Virus record (IMG/VR): IMGVR_UViG_3300012922_000007
Span: 1 to 64,000 of that record
Source of the DNA: a virus
Length of the DNA stretch: 64,000 nucleotides
Strand: one strand, 5' to 3'
The notes beneath the pieces were generated by a model. The model was not told the origin of the DNA. It saw only the letters and a program-made list of their open reading frames with translations, and ran no database searches. A program made the position numbers and the translations under genes. Positions 15,430 through 30,068 of the stretch are shown here, piece by piece (position 1 is the first letter of the stretch; every line of letters starts with the position of its first letter).

Positions 15430-16277
15430 CTGTAAGATAAAATATCAACTAACTAGGTCACTACGGTAAGTAACTGATGGTCAAGGGGGCTTCCCCACTC
15501 CCACCCCCTGAGGCAATCAAGGGTCCCCTATCCTAACTCCTACTGTCTCACACACATACACTCACACGAATATAAATAACACACTCGAACACACGGGATA
15601 CCGCGATCACACACGCACGCATACATAACGCGCCCGCGAAACGAGTGTTGAAAACAAAGGCATTGCCGTAGGTTGATTGGAGTAATCAACCTCATCGAAA
15701 GTGACAGTAAAAACTAGTCTCGAAAATCAAAACCGCACCCACGTAACTCGTTTGCTTTCAATAGTTTGCCGCTAAGTGTATGATAACACGCGCACACGCA
15801 TGCAATCGAAGTGCCAACAAAATTTCCATTTCCCCTTGACACGTTCGCTCTTCCCCTACATTCGCATCATGAGTTCGAGGTCAAACGCGAGGTCATCGTC
15901 CAGATCTGGACAACAGCACGTAGAGATGAAAAATCGTGTAAAATTTTCCCGTTTGTTTTCATGCATTTGCGTCGAAAACGCTCGCATGTCGTTGAAAACA
16001 TAGGTGTGTAAAAAATACTCGAAAGCGGTAAAAATTACACGATATGAAAAATGGAAGTCGTTTGTTTTCATGCACTTGCGTTTGGAACGGCACCTGCACT
16101 AGCACTTGCGACCGACGGTTACACAGGCAGTCCCGAACCCGAGAGCTTCTCGGTCGATGAGAGCATAAGTACTCGGCAGTAGCGATAGCATACCGTATAC
16201 ACCCGCTGTCAAACGGTCCTGTTAACCCGAGGTCAAACGTTAGCTGGCGAGCTATAAACGCACGCGGAGAAAACACA
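15430..16277. other. Non-coding divergence region (possible genome end/terminal repeat or control region)
   Basis: Gene orientation switches here. Contains a CA-rich low-complexity tract (15545-15630) and five copies of a TGTTTTCA/TGAAAACA-core motif; no convincing ORFs. Confidence 0.55.
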
Positions 16278-16556
16278 ATGCCAACCGAACAAGAAATTCT
16301 CAAAGCACGTATCGCTGAACTGGAGAAAGCTCTGGCAGCTAAGAACGCACCCAAGGCTATCTCGTTCAAGGTCAGCGAGAAGGGCGCGGTTAGCGCCTAT
16401 GGTATCAACGCTCGCTTCCCAGTAACTTTATATGCGGACCAATGGGTTCGGCTAAGTGCGGCGATGCCTGCTCTTGGCGAGTTCATCAAGGCGAATGCAT
16501 CTAGCCTGTCAGTGAAACCGGCCAACCACGTCACGACTGTTCCGCCCACGAAGTAA
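16278..16556 (+). CDS. Conserved small protein (KVSEKGAVS.YG...RFPVTLY..QW type)
   Basis: GGAGA RBS, N-terminal coiled coil plus a recognisable conserved motif; first rightward gene. Confidence 0.75.
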   Translation: MPTEQEILKARIAELEKALAAKNAPKAISFKVSEKGAVSAYGINARFPVTLYADQWVRLSAAMPALGEFIKANASSLSVKPANHVTTVPPTK

Positions 16557-16631
16557 CACGGGTTTATTGCAAGCCGAATGATGACTGGCAACAGGAACTT
16601 TCGGCTTGACAATGCATCCGGAATGTGGACA

Positions 16632-17141
16632 ATGCGAGAAATTAAACTAACCCGAGGCTATGTCGCATTGGTCAGCGACGAAGACTATGACCGAATATCA
16701 GTGCACAAGTGGTGTGCTAGCGAGTCGTGGTCAAGAGGCAAGATGCATAACGTATACGCTATCAGAAGTGCGGACGGATATACGCTGCGGATGCACAGGT
16801 TTATCCTTGGCGTCGATGAACACAAGGTCGAGGTCGATCACATTGACGGCAATGGACTTAACAATCAGCGCCACAACTTGCGAACGGGCAGTAGATCAGA
16901 TAATGCTACGAATATGCCTAAGCGCAAGGATGCTAAGTGGTCTGAATTCAAGGGAGTGGTATTACACGTCCAAAGTGGATTGTGGCGATGTGAACTATCC
17001 CTTGGCGGAGTTCGGATATATTTGGGCTACTATCGTACCGAAATTGAGGCAGCTATGGCCTACGATATAGCGTCGCTGTTATTTCGAGGTGAGTTTGCGA
17101 GGTTAAACTTTGCCTCTGGCCCACCACTGCCAGTAATCTAA
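16632..17141 (+). CDS. HNH-AP2 homing endonuclease
   Basis: EIKLTRG.VALV.DED, MHRFIL, VDHIDGNGLNNQRHNLR, and AP2-like YLGYY..E.EAA.AYD. Confidence 0.9.
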   Translation: MREIKLTRGYVALVSDEDYDRISVHKWCASESWSRGKMHNVYAIRSADGYTLRMHRFILGVDEHKVEVDHIDGNGLNNQRHNLRTGSRSDNATNMPKRKDAKWSEFKGVVLHVQSGLWRCELSLGGVRIYLGYYRTEIEAAMAYDIASLLFRGEFARLNFASGPPLPVI

Positions 17142-17153
17142 TTCGAGGGCTAT

Positions 17154-18523
17154 ATGACACACTGTATCGAATGCGAGGGCAATTCCGAAGTAGGGCACGA
17201 GGCTACTTGCTACTATGCCCAAAACGAGGTCAATGTCCCTTGTGGGAAATGCGGACAGCATATGGCCGATGGGAGCGTCGTGGTTATGTCTTGGCAGAAC
17301 ACGGCTATTGAGCATGTTAACTGTCCAGAACCGGACGGGGAATACGAGGTCAGAACACGGACTGCTAATGTCCAGATTCCGGATACATGTGTGCCCGAGG
17401 TCATTCGCTAGGTCACTATCACGCATATAATGCCATGTGTGCGTGAGTAGTAATCTAATGCGAGGTCAAGTCTATGATCGAAGTCAAGACAACAACAACG
17501 AATTTACATGTTTTCCTGTCGCTAACTGGACACGCCTTCGACCAAACGACGCCAGATTCTGATAGGTCACATGGATTTTACTGGTCTATGCGTTGGCTTG
17601 CGCGTCAGGTTATTGGCCAAACTTGGATGGACTGGCTTATTACGTAATTTCAATGCGAGGTTAAACCATGAAAGCACTAGCCAAACTCCGAGCCATTGCC
17701 CGGCAAAAGCATGATTGCGGGGAAATGACTTACACTGAACTTCAACTAATCCTGCTCGAACTTGAGAAGCGCAAGCGAGCATTACGAGGCAAGCCTTAGG
17801 CGAGGTCAAAAATGAAAGACACGATTGTGTACATACTTGTAGCGGGTTTGTTGCTCCCTGTGTATACCATTGCTGCACTTGGTTTATGGGCTCTGGTTAT
17901 ACATGTATACACGGAACTATTTGTTCCGAGGTCAAAACCATGAAACTAAACACTTTGCTCGGATTGTTAGCGGCAGTTTGCCTTGGATTAACCCTGTCCA
18001 ACGTCGCCTGCCTAATCGCGTATACCGATCTGGACAAGGAATATTCACAGGAAATGGGCTTGCGGGATCAATCTGATTCAATGCTTAGAGCTTGTCAGGC
18101 GGGGAATTAACTCAATACGAGGTCAAAATATGATTGTGTACATCGTCGTTATCGTGTTCATGGTGCTGCTTTTCTCGTTCATGGGAATTGTAGTATACTT
18201 TGAACATGTGGAAGCAATGACATTGCTGAAAAACGCAGACGAAAACGAAGATAGTCTCTAGTTACGAGGAGTATGTCCGGATTATGGACCTTGGCATACT
18301 CTTGGCAACTAGCCAATTCGAGGTCAATATGCGTAAGAGTGTAATTCTTGTACTGGTCCTGTTCGCGGTCGGCGCGATGGCTGCTGAACGCGTGAAAAGT
18401 CTGTATCACGTCTCGCACGTGTCTGAATCCCTAGTCGGGATTAGCTGCCCAATCAATCATGCCGACGTAACAGTGATTGGCAACTATAATGGCGTGTTGC
18501 TTATTAGCTGTGGTACTCGGTAA
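17154..18523 (+). CDS. Array of early micro-ORFs (incl. 17154-17411, 17940-18110, 18329-18523 with a signal peptide)
   Basis: Short ORFs, most preceded by CGAGGT(C/T)AA-N1-5-ATG immediately after or overlapping the previous stop. Confidence 0.55.
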
Positions 18524-18860
18524 TCCCGTTTCCCTTGGTAGGACGCGAGGTCAATCTCGCGTAAGCTATTTAGTTTAACGTACTTAGTATAATTCAGCGA
18601 GTTGTGAAACGCTGTTGCTGAGGGACTAAGTAGCTTACGGAAGGTTGTCCAGTTCTGGACAGCTAACCTCGCCCTTGGCTTGGCGCCATCGGCTGATTCT
18701 GGCTGCTCAAGTGATTTCGAGGGCCGTTTAAATGCGATATGGCGAATCGAGGTCACGGAATGGGTTCGAGGCCGGAAACGAGGTCAAACGCCTCGCCTTG
18801 GCCTCGGAAACTAGGCTAGCGAACGTTTTACAGCACGGTCGGACGTGCGGAAAGCGGGTT
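18522..18860 (+). ncRNA. Candidate ~335-nt structured ncRNA
   Basis: Ends pair (CCCGTTTCC/GGAAAGCGGG). Contains a 17-bp stem CGTAAGCTATTTAGTTT/GGACTAAGTAGCTTACG with G-U pairs and several further hairpins. No sense ORF. Confidence 0.5.
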
Positions 18861-18862
18861 TT

Positions 18863-19051
18863 ATGACGGACGAAGAATTGGAAAACAGTTATTACGGCCC
18901 TGTATGTAACATTGCAGGGTGTGTCGAGTGTTATGTTATGGTAATCGAGTGTAACTTCTGCGGAGAGATTAGCACAGTCCAGAATCCGGATAATGCGCCT
19001 CGTATTAACTGTCCGAACTGCGGTATTTCTAATTCTGTACCTCGGGACTGA
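18863..19051 (+). CDS. Small Zn-ribbon protein
   Basis: CNFC...CPNC; lies between the two structured non-coding segments. Confidence 0.5.
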   Translation: MTDEELENSYYGPVCNIAGCVECYVMVIECNFCGEISTVQNPDNAPRINCPNCGISNSVPRD

Positions 19052-19059
19052 TATAACGA

Positions 19060-19635
19060 GATCATTGTAGTCTTGTAGTCTTAGGGCGGGATCGAATATG
19101 TACACAATGCTTCGCGCAAGCTGTTCATAATAGAGCAGCTTACGAGGTGCATACCTCAAGACAAGTTAGACGGACCTGCAAGCTAGGTAACTAGCAGCTG
19201 TGCAAAGCAGCATCGAGGCGACGTGGAGTTAACGTCGTGGTCCACAAATATAAGTCTGCGCAAGTAGCGTAGATACCACGAGATAGAACGGGCAAGCTTT
19301 GGGCCAAAATGTCCAGAGAATTGCACTCTACCAGCATATCAGGTAAGGAAATGCCTGACCCAAGTTTGATATGCGCCAGTTTGAAGAATATTGCGAACTT
19401 TGCAGCGCGGAGAGTGACCGTAACTGTGAGCGATAGCGGCTTCGAACCCTATACGCTTTGGATGGTAAGACCGCCAGCAGTTGAGTGTCTATTTCAAGAA
19501 GTATCCGCGAGGGCAGCAGCAAGGTTAGGTATAAGCGACCGATATAAGTGCTTATAGCTAATGCATTTACGAGAGAACCGAGGCAACTCGTGAGCGACCC
19601 GAACTGCATTAGACTATGCGCATTTTGCGTATACG
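19060..19635 (+). ncRNA. Candidate ~570-nt large ornate ncRNA
   Basis: More than ten helices, several with GNRA loops (GTAA, GCAA) and G-U pairs. Multibranch junctions are closed by GGACC/GGTCC, CACTCT/AGAGTG and CTAATGCA/TGCATTAG. Confidence 0.6.
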
Positions 19636-19645
19636 AGGTGAAAAT

Positions 19646-21223
19646 ATGCACTTAAGTAACGAAGATTTGCTCTTGTTTATGTTAGACGCTCATCGACGTA
19701 TTGAGGTATCAACTAACGCGTGCGAGGACGAAGAAGCCACTAAGTTATATAGATTATATCGCACAGAGGTTTTGAGGAGAATGAATCACGATGTCTAGTC
19801 TAGTTCTAAACGATGGCAACATAAAGACTTCTACTGGAGTTTTGGAAAGTAATTTGTCCTTTCAAGAAGCCATAGATTTCCTAGTTAATACTCCTAGTTG
19901 GTGGAGCGGGCCGAATGGCAAGGGACCGACATTGACCTTGGAGATTGTTAAGAATAGCAAGAATCACAACGGGAAAAATATTCTGATAGTTTCGGACGGC
20001 GATGTTAGTATTGAAATATCGGAACACGGTATATTTTGCTATGCGTGGTCAGGTGCATCCTAATGTCTGAAACTAAAGAAGTGCTCCTTGCTCGGATATT
20101 AGAGCTAGAGAACGCTTTAAAGCCTAAACCTAAATCCGAGGTCAAACGTAAACCTAGGAAACTAAAGGCTATACCAAATGGCCGCGTGAGTTTCAGATTT
20201 CAATTTTGAGGTGAACTATGTTCGGTCTTACCATGATCTATGACAGAGAAACTGCGAGGTTAATTGGTTATCGGATATCCGAGGTCGAAGCCTTGCTAGG
20301 AACTAATCGCAGACGTGAATTCGAGGAGTATATGCGAGGTAAAACCGTAGGTATTGCAAACGGGGAGCACATTGTCTATCCCAATGATTTAAAAGCATTT
20401 TTCCTGTACGGGAATTAAACACGAGGTAAAAATCATGTATGCTATCGTAATGGCGGAAGGTGACGATAAACAGTCTGTAATCAAGAGTTTGCTAGAAGCA
20501 ATTACAGACTTAGAAAAAACCAGCATTGACAACTGTTCAGCTCACAACTTTGAATACGAGATGTTCGAGGGAGAGATGCCTGCAATGGATATGCTCTTTA
20601 ACGATCATTTTGGAAATTAGCTACGAGGTGAATTATGTGTTACGACAGACCTTGGGGACACGGAAACAAAATTGGCGAAGTCTATGTTGTTGAGGAAAAT
20701 AGACTTGGTATCAACAATCATCAACCAAAAGATAAAAGTCTGGCTTTGTGTATAGAGCACACTGGAGACTATTTCTACGATTATATGCCAATAGTCGTAG
20801 ATAAAAAAGGCATAAGGGCAAAATTAAACAAACAATTTGGTTCGTACGCCTTCCGTAAATTGTCCAGATTCCGGAAATTCTCAGATAGAGAGTTTCATTT
20901 ACTTCTAGCTGGAGAGAATCTAAGCGAGTAACTACGGGGTCAATATGAATCGACACGAACAGAAAAAGTACGCCCATTTGATGCATTGGCACGAATGTGG
21001 TATATGCGAGAAAATGTCTGCTTGTACGGATAGTCCTTGCACACGCCTCGATATCTGTCGAGAATGCGAGGTCAATCCTATGGAACAAGTCCTTGGAAAA
21101 GAAAGATGCGAGGTATTTGAACAGGAAATGTCCAAGGTCAGAGCCTACGAGGTTAATATTAGTAAGTATCTTGACCTCGGAGATTCGTGGCGTGCGAGGG
21201 GAATGTCAATTTCACTAGAGTAA
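19646..21223 (+). CDS. Cluster of small early hypothetical ORFs (19646-19798, 19791-20063, 20218-20418, 20435-20620, 20635-20931, 20945-21223)
   Basis: Tightly packed, most with GAGGT-type RBSs. Confidence 0.6.
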
Positions 21224-21236
21224 CGAGGTTCAACTC

Positions 21237-21772
21237 ATGCCGTACTATCGCAGAGGTTCTTTGGAAGAAAGATTTTGGTGGAATGTAGACAAAAACGGCC
21301 CAAAACCCAGTTTAGAATCAATACAAAAATATCCAGAAATTGAAAACACAATATGTTGGATTTGGACTGGCCACACCATAAAACACGGATACGGAAGAAT
21401 GAAAGACAAATCCATAGGCACCCATTTAGCCCATAGAATTGCCTTTTATCTTGCTAACGGAAGATGGCCTAACACAACCACTCCTTTTATACTACATAAA
21501 TGCGACAATCCTCCTTGTGTTAGACTCGAACATTTAATTGAAGGAACTCATGCTCAAAATATTAAAGATTCGTATGATAAAAACAGGGGGGACTGAGCCG
21601 AGTTGGAGAAAATAACTTTTTTGCCAAAGTAACTAAAGACCAGGTAAAACAAATGCGTCAAATGTACGAAGAACAAGATGTATCGTATGCAAAACTTGCG
21701 ACGTTGTTTGGCTTAAAACCGTCTACGGTAAGCGATATTTTGAAAAGAAAACACTGGAAGTGGGTAATTTAA
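21237..21772 (+). pseudogene. HNH homing endonuclease, frameshifted before its C-terminal HTH
   Basis: CWIWTG...GYG...AHRIAF...LHKCDNPPCV...HL..GT...N stops at 21596. The expected GENNFFAK...HTH tail continues in the -1 frame after a G6 run (21586-21591) and ends at 21772. Confidence 0.7.
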
Positions 21773-21790
21773 ACTTAAGGAGGGAAACAA

Positions 21791-22012
21791 ATGTCGGATA
21801 CAGAAAATAAAGAGGTGATGCACGCAATAGCTAACGAGTATGGTTGCTTTTGTTTACCCGATCAGAATTGCGATCAATGTACGGAATATGAAATTGAGTA
21901 TCCGCATATCAACGATCTAAGAGACGAATCAGCCCACAAGTTAGTTGGCCCCGCTCTTCAGAATTACAATTCCCAACATTTTCATAGCTTTATCAGCCGA
22001 AAGTGTAGATAA
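21791..22012 (+). CDS. Hypothetical protein
   Basis: Strong AAGGAGG RBS. Confidence 0.6.
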   Translation: MSDTENKEVMHAIANEYGCFCLPDQNCDQCTEYEIEYPHINDLRDESAHKLVGPALQNYNSQHFHSFISRKCR

Positions 22013-26341: not shown

Positions 26342-26425
26342 TCCAGAATCCGGACTCGATAATCATGTCATTGGCCTCGTATTGGGCCAATGGCGAGCTT
26401 ATCGGCTCAAAGTAAGGAGGAAATA

Positions 26426-28081
26426 ATGCCAGCAAATAGGGCTAACTGCGGTTGTGCTTTGACCTCGGGTAACCCAGCTTGTACTGCTTGTATGCGATGT
26501 CCCGCGTGCTGCCGCAGCTATGGAGAGTGTCTTACATGCACTGGTCCATCCTGCGTAGATTCGAGACCAAGGCTTACGTATCGCCGAAGTCCGGATGTAT
26601 CAGCAGAATTTAGAGCTTGTCAATCTTGTGGATTTTGTTCTGCGTGTTGTTCTCAGAGGAATAGGTGCCACCGGTGCACAGGGTGTCACAGTAACTACGA
26701 AAGAACTCGTATTTGCGCAAATTGTAATATGTGTACAAATGGTTGTTGTCAATGTTGGAGTTGCGCGGGATGTCAGGTGAGGAGACCCCGAGGCAATCGC
26801 CAATGTCGTCAATGCGCTACTTGTATGCAGTGCTGTCAGTGTAGAACTTGTGAAAGATGCGAGGATCAGCGACGAGTCATTTGGTGTCCAGATTGCGAAT
26901 ATTGTTCTGGACATTGCAATGATCCGGAAAATCATACTGAAAGCTTTGTTGATCTAAGGCCGGAGCATCTTCGACCTAGATCGGCAATTATTGCTTTCCA
27001 AAAACGTGCGTTAAAGTTCTGGAACTCTGAACCTACGCAGTTCAAGAGAAATCCACTTAAACGCCACATTAGTGTTGAAATCGAGTGCGACAAGGTTAAT
27101 ACGTCCGGAAACGGAAAGAAATTGGCCTCGGTTCTCAAGAAATGGTCAGACTCTGTAGTGACAGACGGAAGTCTTTCCGGGGACTATGCACACGAGATCA
27201 ATACCTCACCCTCGAATGGTGATCTATTCGTTAACCATATCGAACAGATTACTGAAGCCTATAAAGACATAGATGGCAAGTGCTCAGTGAAGTGCGGCCT
27301 CCACGTCCATGTAAATTGCCAAGATTTGAAGTTCTATGATCTTCGCAAGGTCATTTTGCTGTATGCTAGGATTGAACGAGCGTTGTTCGAACTATGCAGG
27401 CCAGACCGGGTTAATGCCCAGTATAGCCGTCTGTGTGGCAAGAACTATGCCAACATGTCTCCAAATCCGGAAGAATTTCGCAGACAGCTGTTCGGGAAGT
27501 TCTACTGTGATTCGGAGAAACTTGCAGTTGCTAGACCAGATAAGAACGTTGGCCTCGCGATTAAGAAGAAGAAAGAGGGCAAATATGCTGGTGTTAGGTA
27601 TCGTGCTCTCAATCTTCACAGTTACTTTCTAAGGAAGACTGTGGAATTTCGGCATCATGAAGGGAGTGTTGACCCGGAAGTAATCATTAACTGGGCCGAG
27701 GTTTGTGCTTACATAATCGAAGCCGCGAATAAGCTATCCGAGGCGCAAATTCGAGCTTTACCAGATACCTCTCGCCAAGCTTTGTCCACAATTCTACCAG
27801 AGAATCTGAGAGAATGGTGTGACAAGATTTGGGAGAAATCTGTTGTAAAATGGGAGGAAGTGGAAATCAGCAACAATAGACCAGATCTTCCCCTCGTTCC
27901 AAAGGAGGAAAAACAGTTGGATAGACGAGCACTTCGCAAGAAACACAAGGCCGAAAGGAGAGCCAAGGCTAAAATTAATGAGTATAGGCTGATAGCTTTG
28001 CGAGCCATTATTTCAGGTCAGAGGTTGACTCCGCAACCGGTTGCTGCACAGTCCGGAACTGGACAATCAACTCCATTTTGA
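26426..28081 (+). CDS. Amidoligase (COOH-NH2 ligase, phiEco32-type) with a long Cys-rich N-terminus
   Basis: VEIEC, VTDGSL, EINT.P, CGLHVHV, RY.ALNL, TVEFRHHEG motifs. The N-terminal ~170 aa is tandem CxxC. AAGGAGG RBS before 26426. Confidence 0.85.
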   Translation: MPANRANCGCALTSGNPACTACMRCPACCRSYGECLTCTGPSCVDSRPRLTYRRSPDVSAEFRACQSCGFCSACCSQRNRCHRCTGCHSNYERTRICANCNMCTNGCCQCWSCAGCQVRRPRGNRQCRQCATCMQCCQCRTCERCEDQRRVIWCPDCEYCSGHCNDPENHTESFVDLRPEHLRPRSAIIAFQKRALKFWNSEPTQFKRNPLKRHISVEIECDKVNTSGNGKKLASVLKKWSDSVVTDGSLSGDYAHEINTSPSNGDLFVNHIEQITEAYKDIDGKCSVKCGLHVHVNCQDLKFYDLRKVILLYARIERALFELCRPDRVNAQYSRLCGKNYANMSPNPEEFRRQLFGKFYCDSEKLAVARPDKNVGLAIKKKKEGKYAGVRYRALNLHSYFLRKTVEFRHHEGSVDPEVIINWAEVCAYIIEAANKLSEAQIRALPDTSRQALSTILPENLREWCDKIWEKSVVKWEEVEISNNRPDLPLVPKEEKQLDRRALRKKHKAERRAKAKINEYRLIALRAIISGQRLTPQPVAAQSGTGQSTPF

Positions 28082-28147
28082 CCTCGTATTTAACTTCAAG
28101 CCCGGACTTCCCGAAAGCGAGGTCCGGAGCGTGCGGTTAGGAGGAAT

Positions 28148-28681
28148 ATGAAAGAAATAGAGTTAACCCAGGGCTACAAAGCTTTGGTGGACGACGAAGA
28201 CGAAGCCAAGGTAAATCAGTTTACTTGGTGTGCTATGGTTAGAAATAATAAAGACGGCTCGTTTCGTACAGTCTACGCACAAACATCTCTTGGAGTGGAC
28301 GAAAAAGGAAAAAGTGTTAGGATATATTTACATCGGTTTATACTCGGTATAGTTGATCCTAAAGTTTTAGTGGATCACAAAGACTATAACGGATTAAATT
28401 GCCAAAAAGAGAACCTCCGAATTGCAGCTGATGGCCAAAATCCATGGAATGCTCGGATTTCAAAAAGCCATAAGACAGAATCTAAATACAAAGGCGTAAC
28501 GTTGTATAAAAGCCACGGCAGAGTCATAGGATACAAGTATAATATATGCAAGAAAGGTGAAAAGTTTTCGGAACGGGGATTTGAAACCGAGGATGAGGCT
28601 GGTCGAGCTTACGATAAAAAAGCCAAGGAGCTTTTTGGAGAGTACGCTTATCTAAACTTTCCGGATGAACAGGAATCTTAA
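28148..28681 (+). CDS. HNH-AP2 homing endonuclease
   Basis: EIELTQG.KALVDDED, LHRFIL, VDHKD.NGLN...NLR, EA..AYD..A..LFGE.A.LNF. Confidence 0.9.
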   Translation: MKEIELTQGYKALVDDEDEAKVNQFTWCAMVRNNKDGSFRTVYAQTSLGVDEKGKSVRIYLHRFILGIVDPKVLVDHKDYNGLNCQKENLRIAADGQNPWNARISKSHKTESKYKGVTLYKSHGRVIGYKYNICKKGEKFSERGFETEDEAGRAYDKKAKELFGEYAYLNFPDEQES

Positions 28682-28703
28682 ATTAAACTAACGGAGGATG
28701 TAT

Positions 28704-30068
28704 ATGTGCGGTATTTTTTGTGTTGCAAATAAAGAGGGTTACGAGCCAAAATTGGATATAGCCATTCCAATTATGGCATTGATAATGGAAGAGAGGGGTA
28801 GACACAGTTTTGGCCTCTCTGATGGTGTGGAAATTATCAAAGACACGGGGCCAATTTCTTCTGGATTGACTGTAAACATGTTTACGGGAAAGAAGGAGCT
28901 AATAGCCCACACTAGACACGCCACTCACGGTTCTCAAACTAAACAAAACGCGCATCCTTTTGAATTCGGAGAAGGAGAAAATAAAATTATTGGTTTGCAC
29001 AATGGAGTATTAGTTAATCACGATAAGATGAACGAAGAACACAACAGAAAATTCGAGGTTGATTCTTGTCACATATTTCAGCATATTCTTGAAAACAAAC
29101 CACTTAAGGACATCCAGGGCTACGGTGCGGTAGCTTTCTTCCAGCGTGGTAAAATGTATCTTGGTAGATTTAATGGAGGCCAGCTGGCTATTGCAAGAAC
29201 AAAATTTGGAATAGTTGCGGCTTCGACTCAAGAAGCTGTTTACAAAGCTTTAAAAATATCCGGCTTGGAATTGGAATGTTTTTATGAGGTTCTGGATGAA
29301 AAACTTTATATGGTAGAAGAAGGTCTTTTATTTAACACTGACAGAGATTTCCGCTTCGGCTCTCGCTACCAGCCCATAACCAACAACTATCACGGACATT
29401 ACGAACCCCATGATTGGAGGCAAGGTTCGAATTACTATGAAGGAGCACGAGGCCGATGGATCAACAATCACTGGGAAGAGGGTAAATGGATCAACAAAGA
29501 TACATTTGTCCCAGGAGAATGGAAAACTGGTAAATTCACTCCGAATGACGAGGGCAAGGCTCAATTATTTCTCCTCGGAGATGGTAAATCTAAGAAGGGA
29601 AAGCAGAAGACCAAGAGGGCTGTCGCTGACTCAGATGCAGATAACTGCTGTCTATGTCAGTGTTTGTTCTCAGTCGAGGAAGAAACTTGGGACAGTCCCT
29701 TCGGTGAGTTATGCGATAGCTGCATGATGACTTGTTTTCGGGCTCAAATGGAAGAGGAGACCGAGGTCATTGAACTTGAAGCAACTATCGAGAACTCAGT
29801 AGGCGAGGGTATCCATAAACTGGACGATCCGTTTATTTCTACAACAGTCCGAGACTTTCTAAAGGAGCTAACAGATAAAGAAGCAGCAAGCAATAGATGC
29901 AATAAAGAGACAATGCAAGGATCGTGTGACGAATGTGCAGTTACAGTTAGCAACGATGATAAGATATTTGTTGATAAAGCCGACGGCCACATAGTAAAAT
30001 GGATTTTGTGTGTTGGATGTCATCATCAACTAACAACTCCATATAACACAGAATTTCCAATCTGTTAA
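28704..30068 (+). CDS. Class II (Ntn) glutamine amidotransferase with a Zn-binding C-terminal extension
   Basis: MCGIF start 6 nt after GGAGG; RG..S.G, HTRHATHG, NAHPF, HNGV, VDS motifs. Confidence 0.9.
   Translation: MCGIFCVANKEGYEPKLDIAIPIMALIMEERGRHSFGLSDGVEIIKDTGPISSGLTVNMFTGKKELIAHTRHATHGSQTKQNAHPFEFGEGENKIIGLHNGVLVNHDKMNEEHNRKFEVDSCHIFQHILENKPLKDIQGYGAVAFFQRGKMYLGRFNGGQLAIARTKFGIVAASTQEAVYKALKISGLELECFYEVLDEKLYMVEEGLLFNTDRDFRFGSRYQPITNNYHGHYEPHDWRQGSNYYEGARGRWINNHWEEGKWINKDTFVPGEWKTGKFTPNDEGKAQLFLLGDGKSKKGKQKTKRAVADSDADNCCLCQCLFSVEEETWDSPFGELCDSCMMTCFRAQMEEETEVIELEATIENSVGEGIHKLDDPFISTTVRDFLKELTDKEAASNRCNKETMQGSCDECAVTVSNDDKIFVDKADGHIVKWILCVGCHHQLTTPYNTEFPIC

What the first reader, a model, noticed from the sequence alone, without database searches (positions are those of the whole stretch)
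19060..19635. ~570-nt ornate non-coding RNA candidate (ROOL/GOLLD size class or a new class)
Seen: a long gap in an otherwise densely coded region, packed with helices. Examples: AAGCTGTTC/GAGCAGCTT (19118-19141); GAGGT/ACCTC; a junction closed by GGACC/GGTCC holding GCTAG-GTAA-CTAGC, a GCAA-loop hairpin and CGACGT/ACGTCG; TCTGCGC/GCGTAGA; GCATATCA/TGATATGC inside CACTCT/AGAGTG; TATAAGC/GCTTATA; CTAATGCA/TGCATTAG around CGAG-GCAA-CTCG. 5' TAGTCT may pair with 3' AGACTA. GNRA loops and G-U pairs point to a + strand RNA. Established: phages carry large ornate RNAs (GOLLD, ROOL) of unknown function. Inference: with the 335-nt element and the Zn-ribbon ORF between them, this may be an undescribed RNA or RNP module; it is my best candidate for a novel system here.
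Basis: partly seen in the sequence, partly recalled or inferred. Interest (0 to 1): 0.8.

Follow-up and report, generated by a model that had tools for sequence, protein, structure and literature searches.

The report
Orphan hairpin-rich non-coding phage gap
A 594-base stretch without a convincing gene in the early region of an uncultured soil phage folds into + strand hairpins better than chance, but it matches no known RNA family and is not conserved in related phages, so it stays an unproven, strain-specific RNA candidate.

Summary
The gap is real. It runs 19052-19645, between a small Zn-ribbon ORF and the next gene (ATG 19646).

What supports an RNA:
- The + strand folds better than shuffles (z -4.15). 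The - strand does not (z -1.32).
- The signal is concentrated in a 180-nt 5' hairpin domain, 19101-19280 (z -4.57).
- No ORF in the gap has this phage's near-universal CGAGGT Shine-Dalgarno.
- The 82-aa ORF has no credible homolog.

What weakens the claim:
- Against the phage's own + strand windows the gap ranks only 11th of 208.
- The proposed 5'/3' closing stem is no better than chance (10 of 71 shuffles).

No Rfam family matches, including ROOL, GOLLD, OLE, HEARO and group I/II introns.

Two close variants in soil metagenomes are identical over 19064-19100. They become unalignable exactly at 19100. A phage with 77% TerL identity carries its own unrelated 740-nt gap. Family-level relatives match neither by BLAST (30 records) nor by a covariance model (40 records).

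Best reading: a strain-specific, hairpin-rich non-coding cassette in a recombination-prone early region, acting at RNA level. It is not a conserved ornate RNA class. Covariation could not be tested. Interest is modest. The scan found no look-alike on other DNA.

The parts
19052..19645 (+). 594-nt gap without a convincing gene; candidate structured RNA region inside the early + strand transcription unit
   Evidence: ORF list and SD scan. Fold z -4.15 on + against -1.32 on -. Period-3 signal at the 8.6th percentile of + arm windows. IMG called no gene here.
19064..19100 (+). 37-nt block with no listed difference in two related phage variants; all similarity ends abruptly at 19100 (a recombination joint)
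   Evidence: read laying. Contigs of runs X1 and X3 match 19022/19042-19100. They then run on unlike, with the same foreign hairpin sequence in both (tables 3, 7, 8). The block has no other copy in the genome.
19101..19280 (+). 5' hairpin domain. It holds hairpins 19118-19141 and 19144-19157. A multistem junction is closed by 19172-19176/19239-19243 and holds three hairpins (19182-19195, 19197-19211, 19218-19238). A further hairpin lies at 19254-19274.
   Evidence: z -4.57 with 0/200 shuffles on +, -1.49 on -. Pair probabilities 0.79-0.99.
19281..19615 (+). 3' part with weaker structure: hairpins 19297-19318, 19334-19374, the 19416-19489 domain and 19530-19556
   Evidence: z -2.53 on +, +0.45 on -. 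Ordinary against the genome's own background.
19309..19557 (+). 82-aa ORF, probably spurious
   Evidence: No SD. Not called by IMG. No Pfam or PHROG hit. phmmer against 1.84 billion representatives gave only two multi-stretch hits, which I read as repeat-type; I did not inspect them. Codon-usage likelihood ratio real/spurious 1.04, i.e. uninformative.
19616..19648 (+). Hairpin 19616-19632, then SD GAGGT (19634-19638) and ATG 19646 of the next gene (50 aa)
18863..19051 (+). 62-aa Zn-ribbon ORF (CxxC pairs) upstream of the gap; no SD; orphan
   Evidence: Weak Zn-ribbon Pfam hits, all below their cut-offs. Codon-usage likelihood ratio 9 for a real gene. No homolog among 5.8 billion clusters. The X3 variant replaces 81 nt with 135 nt, an in-frame difference of 54.
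18524..18862 (+). Upstream 339-nt structured gap, partly conserved in variants, with indels
   Evidence: z -6.19. Helices listed. The X3 variant keeps 18519-18568, 18652-18703 and 18753-18865, and lacks 18704-18752.

Best explanation
The stretch is a strain-specific, non-coding, hairpin-rich cassette. It lies in the recombination-prone early region (many 40-90-aa genes) of an uncultured ~80-kb soil phage.

Inferred: it is transcribed with its neighbours from the + strand as part of a long early RNA, and it acts at the RNA level. The well-folded 5' domain (19101-19280) and the hairpin just before the next gene's ribosome-binding site would give a stable, untranslated, G-rich structured segment. 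Such a segment can resist Rho and ribonucleases, serve as a processing or stability element, or be cut out as a stable small RNA, and it can tune the gene that follows.

Shown: no canonical gene; + strand-specific folding; an abrupt exchange joint at 19100; no conservation in relatives.

Inferred: transcription, processing and any regulatory effect.
For: - No ORF over 21 aa with this phage's near-universal CGAGGT(C/G)AA SD.
- The gene caller left the gap empty.
- The 82-aa ORF has no family and no credible relative.
- Folding exceeds shuffles on the + strand only.
- No terminator-like site lies between 16 and 20.8 kb on +, so read-through transcription is plausible.
- Variants are identical over 19064-19100 and then unalignable, the pattern of cassette exchange.
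- The relative with 77% TerL identity carries a different 740-nt ORF-poor gap in its early region.
Against: - No transcript data exist.
- Against the phage's own + strand background the fold is only in the top ~5%, and the 3' half is ordinary.
- No homolog was found, so no covariation supports any helix.
- Codon usage cannot exclude the 82-aa ORF.
- The neighbouring Zn-ribbon ORF shows that genes without an SD exist here.
Confidence: 0.4

Rival explanations
1. A free-standing large ncRNA of a new class, analogous to GOLLD or ROOL. It may work with the Zn-ribbon protein and the upstream 339-nt element as one RNA-protein module.
For: - Size 594 nt, close to the ROOL average of 581 nt (PMC5737381).
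- A multistem junction and two GNRA tetraloops.
- + strand-specific stability.
- A second structured gap lies 190 nt upstream (z -6.19).
Against: - No Rfam match of any kind.
- No own promoter or terminator predicted.
- Not conserved in close variants past 19100, in a relative with 77% TerL identity, in 30 relatives by BLAST or in 40 by covariance model.
- The Zn-ribbon ORF is an orphan.
- The end-to-end closure is at chance level.
- Known ornate RNAs are widely conserved.
Confidence: 0.15
2. Cryptic or decaying coding sequence. Either the 82-aa ORF (19309-19557) is a real gene without an SD, or the gap is the remnant of one or more lost early genes.
For: - The ORF's codon score lies inside the range of real small genes (12th percentile).
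- The neighbouring Zn-ribbon ORF also lacks an SD yet looks real.
- Early regions of such phages turn genes over quickly.
Against: - No SD.
- No homolog except two multi-stretch hits among 1.84 billion representatives.
- Not called by IMG.
- Its AUG sits in a hairpin with pair probability 1.0.
- An 82-codon ORF is not unexpected in 594 nt: the opposite strand has a 107-aa ORF that overlaps it.
- The ORF leaves 19052-19308, the best-folded part, unexplained.
Confidence: 0.2
3. A DNA-level element: a replication origin, or a small mobile or exchange cassette with imperfect terminal inverted repeats (19076-19094 against 19595-19616).
For: - An imperfect inverted repeat lies at the two ends.
- There is an abrupt joint at 19100 in variants.
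- Two HNH homing-type endonuclease genes lie nearby, at 16578-17141 and 21237-21596.
Against: - Structure is strand-specific, which points to RNA and not DNA.
- There are no iterons or direct repeats and no second copy in the genome.
- The 5' repeat arm lies inside the block shared with variants that lack the interior, so it is not the insertion boundary.
- The end pairing is at chance level.
Confidence: 0.1
4. Functionless filler left by recombination. It is tolerated only because a structured, G-rich untranslated stretch does not trigger Rho-dependent polarity.
For: - No conservation anywhere.
- The structure is only in the top ~5% for this genome.
Against: - Phage genomes are tightly packed. 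On the crude map of SD-led + strand ORFs of 40 aa or more, this is the longest uncovered stretch of the 16-64 kb arm.
- The 5' domain's z of -4.57 is hard to obtain without selection.
Confidence: 0.15

Closest known systems
ROOL RNA (Rfam RF03087; PMC5737381) and GOLLD RNA (RF01998)
   Same: It is carried by a phage. Its length (594 nt) is close to the ROOL average of 581 nt. It is hairpin-rich, has a multistem junction, and encodes no protein.
   Different: - No covariance-model match even at E<=10.
- Not next to tRNAs: the only tRNA of the window is at 1167-1242.
- Far fewer junctions in the predicted fold than ROOL's six junctions and three pseudoknots.
- No conservation across phages, whereas ROOL and GOLLD span several phyla.
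Mobile regulatory cassettes (PeSLs) and hyperplastic regions of T4-type phages (PMC2839356, PMC4122927)
   Same: Short, strongly conserved non-coding blocks (19064-19100 and 18519-18568) sit exactly at the borders of segments that differ between close variants. This lies within a run of small early genes of unknown function.
   Different: - The blocks are not repeated elsewhere in this genome.
- No sigma-70-type promoter was predicted in them.
- The exchanged segment here is non-coding rather than a small gene.
RNase III processing hairpins between T7 early genes (my own knowledge, not tested here)
   Same: Stable hairpins lie between cistrons of a long early transcript, with one hairpin directly before the next gene's ribosome-binding site.
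   Different: T7 sites are single hairpins of about 50-60 nt. Here about 15 helices fill 594 nt. The host and its RNases are unknown.

Membership tests
ROOL RNA (RF03087) | Match to the Rfam covariance model | tested here: not met
   cmscan of the window at gathering scores found only a tRNA. 18400-19800 at E<=10 gave no ROOL hit.
ROOL RNA (RF03087) | Often near tRNA genes and in prophages (PMC5737381) | tested here: not met
   The only tRNA in 64 kb is at 1167-1242, 18 kb away. The element lies among small early genes.
ROOL RNA (RF03087) | [quoted passage not shown] | tested here: inconclusive
   The length fits (594 nt). The predicted fold shows only one well-supported multistem junction, 19172-19243. 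Pseudoknots cannot be predicted with these tools.
GOLLD RNA (RF01998) | Match to the Rfam covariance model | tested here: not met
   No hit at E<=10.
Group I intron (RF00028) | Match to the model, and insertion inside a gene whose exons join in frame | tested here: not met
   No hit at E<=10. The flanks are two complete ORFs: one with its own stop (19051), the other with its own SD and ATG (19634/19646).
Group II intron (RF00029 and domain models) | Domain V/VI match | tested here: not met
   No hit at E<=10.
OLE, HEARO, raiA and self-cleaving ribozymes (Rfam 15) | Match to any of the 4227 models | tested here: not met
   The only hits were three chance-level ones (E 2.8-7.4, far below gathering scores) on the - strand.
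PeSL-type mobile regulatory cassette borders (T4-type phages) | A conserved short non-coding block at the border of a variable segment | tested here: met
   No listed difference over 19064-19100 in variants from two soil runs. Total divergence follows from 19101.
PeSL-type mobile regulatory cassette borders (T4-type phages) | The block is a promoter plus stem-loop, repeated many times in the genome | tested here: not met
   No other copy with up to 2 mismatches per 12-mer. No sigma-70-like promoter at 19064-19100. The host's promoter type is unknown.

The most novel reading that the evidence does not exclude
The 19101-19615 segment is an exchangeable cargo RNA. It may act together with the 339-nt element and the orphan Zn-ribbon protein. 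On this reading, each phage lineage carries a different large structured RNA behind the same conserved 37-nt entry block. That would be a hypervariable RNA cassette system, for example decoys or counter-defence RNAs, and not a conserved ribozyme-like class. The variants' foreign sequence after 19100 also begins with a GNRA-capped hairpin, and the relative with 77% TerL identity has its own 740-nt structured gap. Both observations are compatible with this reading.
Probability: 0.12. Interest if true: 0.65.

Novelty: new member of a known kind. Interest (0 to 1): 0.3.

Why it matters
Large structured phage RNAs such as GOLLD and ROOL still have no known function, although they have been shown to build RNA-only cages (bioRxiv 10.1101/2024.12.08.627333). 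A new one would therefore be of real interest.

This candidate lacks the property that made those RNAs credible, namely conservation with covariation. Its value is narrower:
- It marks a poorly sampled clade of soil phages. The nearest cultured relative by TerL is an Acidobacteriota phage at 29% identity.
- In this clade the early regions hold long, strain-specific, structured non-coding stretches bounded by sharply conserved blocks.
- If these prove to be exchangeable RNA cassettes, that would be a new mode of phage early-region variation.
- If not, the stretch is an ordinary untranslated spacer.

Tried and rejected
Searches that found no homolog of the element
- GenBank phages, blastn of 18400-19800: no match.
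- IMG/VR with the Zn-ribbon ORF, the 90-aa ORF, TerL alone, alignment A1, and the 23-nt conserved block: no relative.
- Genome contigs with A1: none.
- The scan's own look-alike index: none.
- The variants' foreign 27-mer: absent from the window and from all loci.
- blastn of the gap against the whole phage: no paralog.
- All-against-all blastn of ORF-free gaps from 19 relatives: no shared family. Some of those gaps are tRNA arrays, and my 60-aa criterion also flags runs of small genes.

Relatives that gave no usable copy
- The metagenome-contig scan with A1 gave one 1.7-kb contig (L002). It has ordinary small genes, and no long gap, upstream of the 90-aa homolog.
- The 90-aa downstream ORF has three relatives on 1.5-8.4-kb Logan/ENA contigs. 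This blocked the most direct route to a covariation test.
- The two base changes in variants at 18682 and 18690 do not fall on a predicted pair.

Other
- No RNA holder was listed among sequencing runs. Only three soil DNA runs hold the stretch, one of them the probable source.
- Run X3 has no cover after 19100 in read laying.
- I considered a TnpB/omega-RNA remnant because of the Zn-ribbon. I rejected it because no OrfB_Zn_ribbon hit appears in Pfam at E<=0.1.
- I considered a permuted group I core because of the TAGTCT...AGACTA order. I rejected it for lack of any model hit and of exon context.

Full report
**Setting.** The window is the first 64 kb of a 78.5-kb IMG/VR virus record from soil. 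Structural genes (portal, large terminase, tape measure) lie on the - strand up to about 15 kb. From about 16 kb, small early genes and then replication genes (family A DNA polymerase, primase-helicase, UvsX-like recombinase) run on the + strand. The nearest cultured phage by large terminase is Tunturiibacter phage Tunturi_3, at 29% identity. The clade is therefore poorly sampled.

**The observation.** The Zn-ribbon ORF stops at 19051. The next gene starts at ATG 19646, behind GAGGT at 19634, so the gap is 19052-19645, 594 nt. Most appear in the thermodynamic ensemble with pair probabilities of 0.8-1.0. These include:
- hairpins 19118-19141, 19144-19157 and 19254-19274;
- a junction closed by GGACC/GGTCC (19172/19239) that holds three hairpins.

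Only two loops are strict GNRA tetraloops.

**Is it more than chance?**

| Region | + strand z | - strand z |
|---|---|---|
| Whole gap 19052-19646 | -4.15 (0/100) | -1.32 |
| 19101-19280 | -4.57 (0/200) | -1.49 |
| 19281-19645 | -2.53 | +0.45 |

This asymmetry argues for RNA on the transcribed strand and against a DNA structure. Shuffles overstate the case, however. I folded 208 + strand windows of the same length across this phage and regressed energy on composition. The gap ranks 11th, at z -1.6. In 300-nt windows only 19052-19351 stands out (z -2.1), and the 3' half is ordinary. The proposed end-to-end closure (TAGTCT/AGACTA and neighbours) is not significant: 10 of 71 dinucleotide shuffles have at least as many 5'-3' end pairs.

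**Coding or not?** Nearly every early gene here has CGAGGT(C/G)AA 7-8 nt before its ATG. Inside the gap only GTG-started ORFs of 11, 14 and 21 aa have any SD. For the 82-aa ORF (19309-19557):
- it has no SD;
- IMG did not call it;
- it has no Pfam or PHROG match;
- against 1.84 billion representatives it gives only two hits, each matching in several stretches (9 and 3). I read these as repeat-type matches and did not inspect them further;
- its codon usage is uninformative, with a likelihood ratio of 1.04.

The gap's period-3 signal is low, at the 8.6th percentile. I conclude the gap is probably non-coding, but this is not proven. The neighbouring Zn-ribbon ORF also lacks an SD yet scores as a real gene (likelihood ratio 9).

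**Known families.** cmscan against Rfam 15 finds only a tRNA at gathering scores. At E<=10 over 18400-19800 there are three chance-level hits on the wrong strand. ROOL, GOLLD, OLE, HEARO, raiA, group I and II introns and the small ribozymes are therefore excluded as far as their models reach.

**Relatives.**
- *Close variants.* Logan contigs from two soil runs (X1 minor strain, X3) match the end of the Zn-ribbon ORF with scattered differences. They show no listed difference over 19064-19100. At 19100 both switch to the same foreign sequence, which itself starts with a GCAA-capped hairpin. The same variants keep islands of the upstream 339-nt element, with a 49-nt deletion, and show an in-frame replacement inside the Zn-ribbon ORF. 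This is the pattern of cassette exchange at sharp joints, not of gradual drift.
- *The 77% relative.* One IMG/VR contig with 77% TerL identity (L003/L005) reaches into its own early region. After the homolog of ORF 17154-17411 it has a 740-nt stretch with no evident gene. That stretch folds well on both strands (z about -3.75). It shares no significant similarity with our gap (local alignment z 0.6).
- *Family-level relatives (38-47% TerL identity).* Thirty records gave no significant BLAST match to 18524-19645. A covariance model of 19116-19276 found only itself in 421 kb of fetched DNA and nothing in 40 whole records.
- *Neighbouring genes.* The Zn-ribbon ORF has no homolog at all. The 90-aa downstream gene has three relatives. 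The only retrievable one (L002) has ordinary small genes upstream.
No covariation test was possible.

**Interpretation.** The data fit a strain-specific, non-coding, hairpin-rich cassette in a hyperplastic early region. It would be transcribed with its neighbours, since no terminator-like site lies between 16 and 20.8 kb, and it would act at RNA level. The closest parallel in genome dynamics is the T4-type hyperplastic region, whose variable segments are bounded by short conserved regulatory blocks (PMC2839356, PMC4122927). Here, though, the blocks are not repeated in the genome. In size and carriage the closest RNAs are ROOL and GOLLD (PMC5737381; bioRxiv 10.1101/2024.12.08.627333), but every testable defining feature except length fails.

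A free-standing new ornate RNA remains possible but unsupported. So do a cryptic 82-aa gene, a DNA-level element and plain filler. I give the RNA-level cassette reading 0.4.

**Verdict.** The 'ornate RNA class / RNP module' reading is not supported by comparative evidence. The scan had noted the same stretch once more from an overlapping window, and found no look-alike elsewhere. Interest 0.3.

Noticed in passing
window 16200-22000 (e.g. 17462, 17801, 18118, 18317, 19631, 20206, 20623): The iterated 9-mer CGAGGTCAA, flagged elsewhere in this scan, is the extended Shine-Dalgarno of the early genes. In 16.2-22 kb, most SD-led ORF starts carry CGAGGT(C/G)AA or a one-base variant about 7-8 nt before the ATG. 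Copies inside the 339-nt gap (18547, 18779) are not followed by a start codon.
   Followed up: partly
window 18524-18862: The upstream 339-nt gap folds even better than the finding (z -6.19). It has a 16-bp helix (18561-18576/18623-18638) and a tiny SD-led 19-aa ORF at 18760-18819. Variants keep three islands of it and delete 18704-18752, which removes that ORF's SD.
   Followed up: partly
window 18863-19051: The 62-aa Zn-ribbon ORF has no SD and no homolog among 5.8 billion protein clusters. A soil variant replaces 81 nt of its 5' part with 135 nt (an in-frame difference).
   Followed up: partly
L005:1657-2395 (IMGVR_UViG_3300032893_000360): A phage with 77% TerL identity has its own ~740-nt stretch with no evident gene in the early region. 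It folds at z about -3.75 on both strands and is unrelated in sequence to the window's gaps.
   Followed up: partly
L117:8988-9045 (G025, 105.8-kb relative): A type-P5 twister ribozyme scores above the Rfam gathering score (57.3 bits) in a family-level relative. The same stretch carries 22 tRNA genes. Other relatives carry 19-25 tRNAs, and one carries a tmRNA-like call (L111:4015-4324).
   Followed up: no
window 16578-17141 and 21237-21596: Two free-standing HNH_3 endonuclease genes, the first with an AP2-like domain, lie among the early genes. The relative with 77% TerL identity lacks the first one at the equivalent place.
   Followed up: no
window 26390-30068: Amidoligase-like and glutamine amidotransferase-like genes lie side by side (PHROG hits). 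This may be a DNA or metabolite modification module.
   Followed up: no
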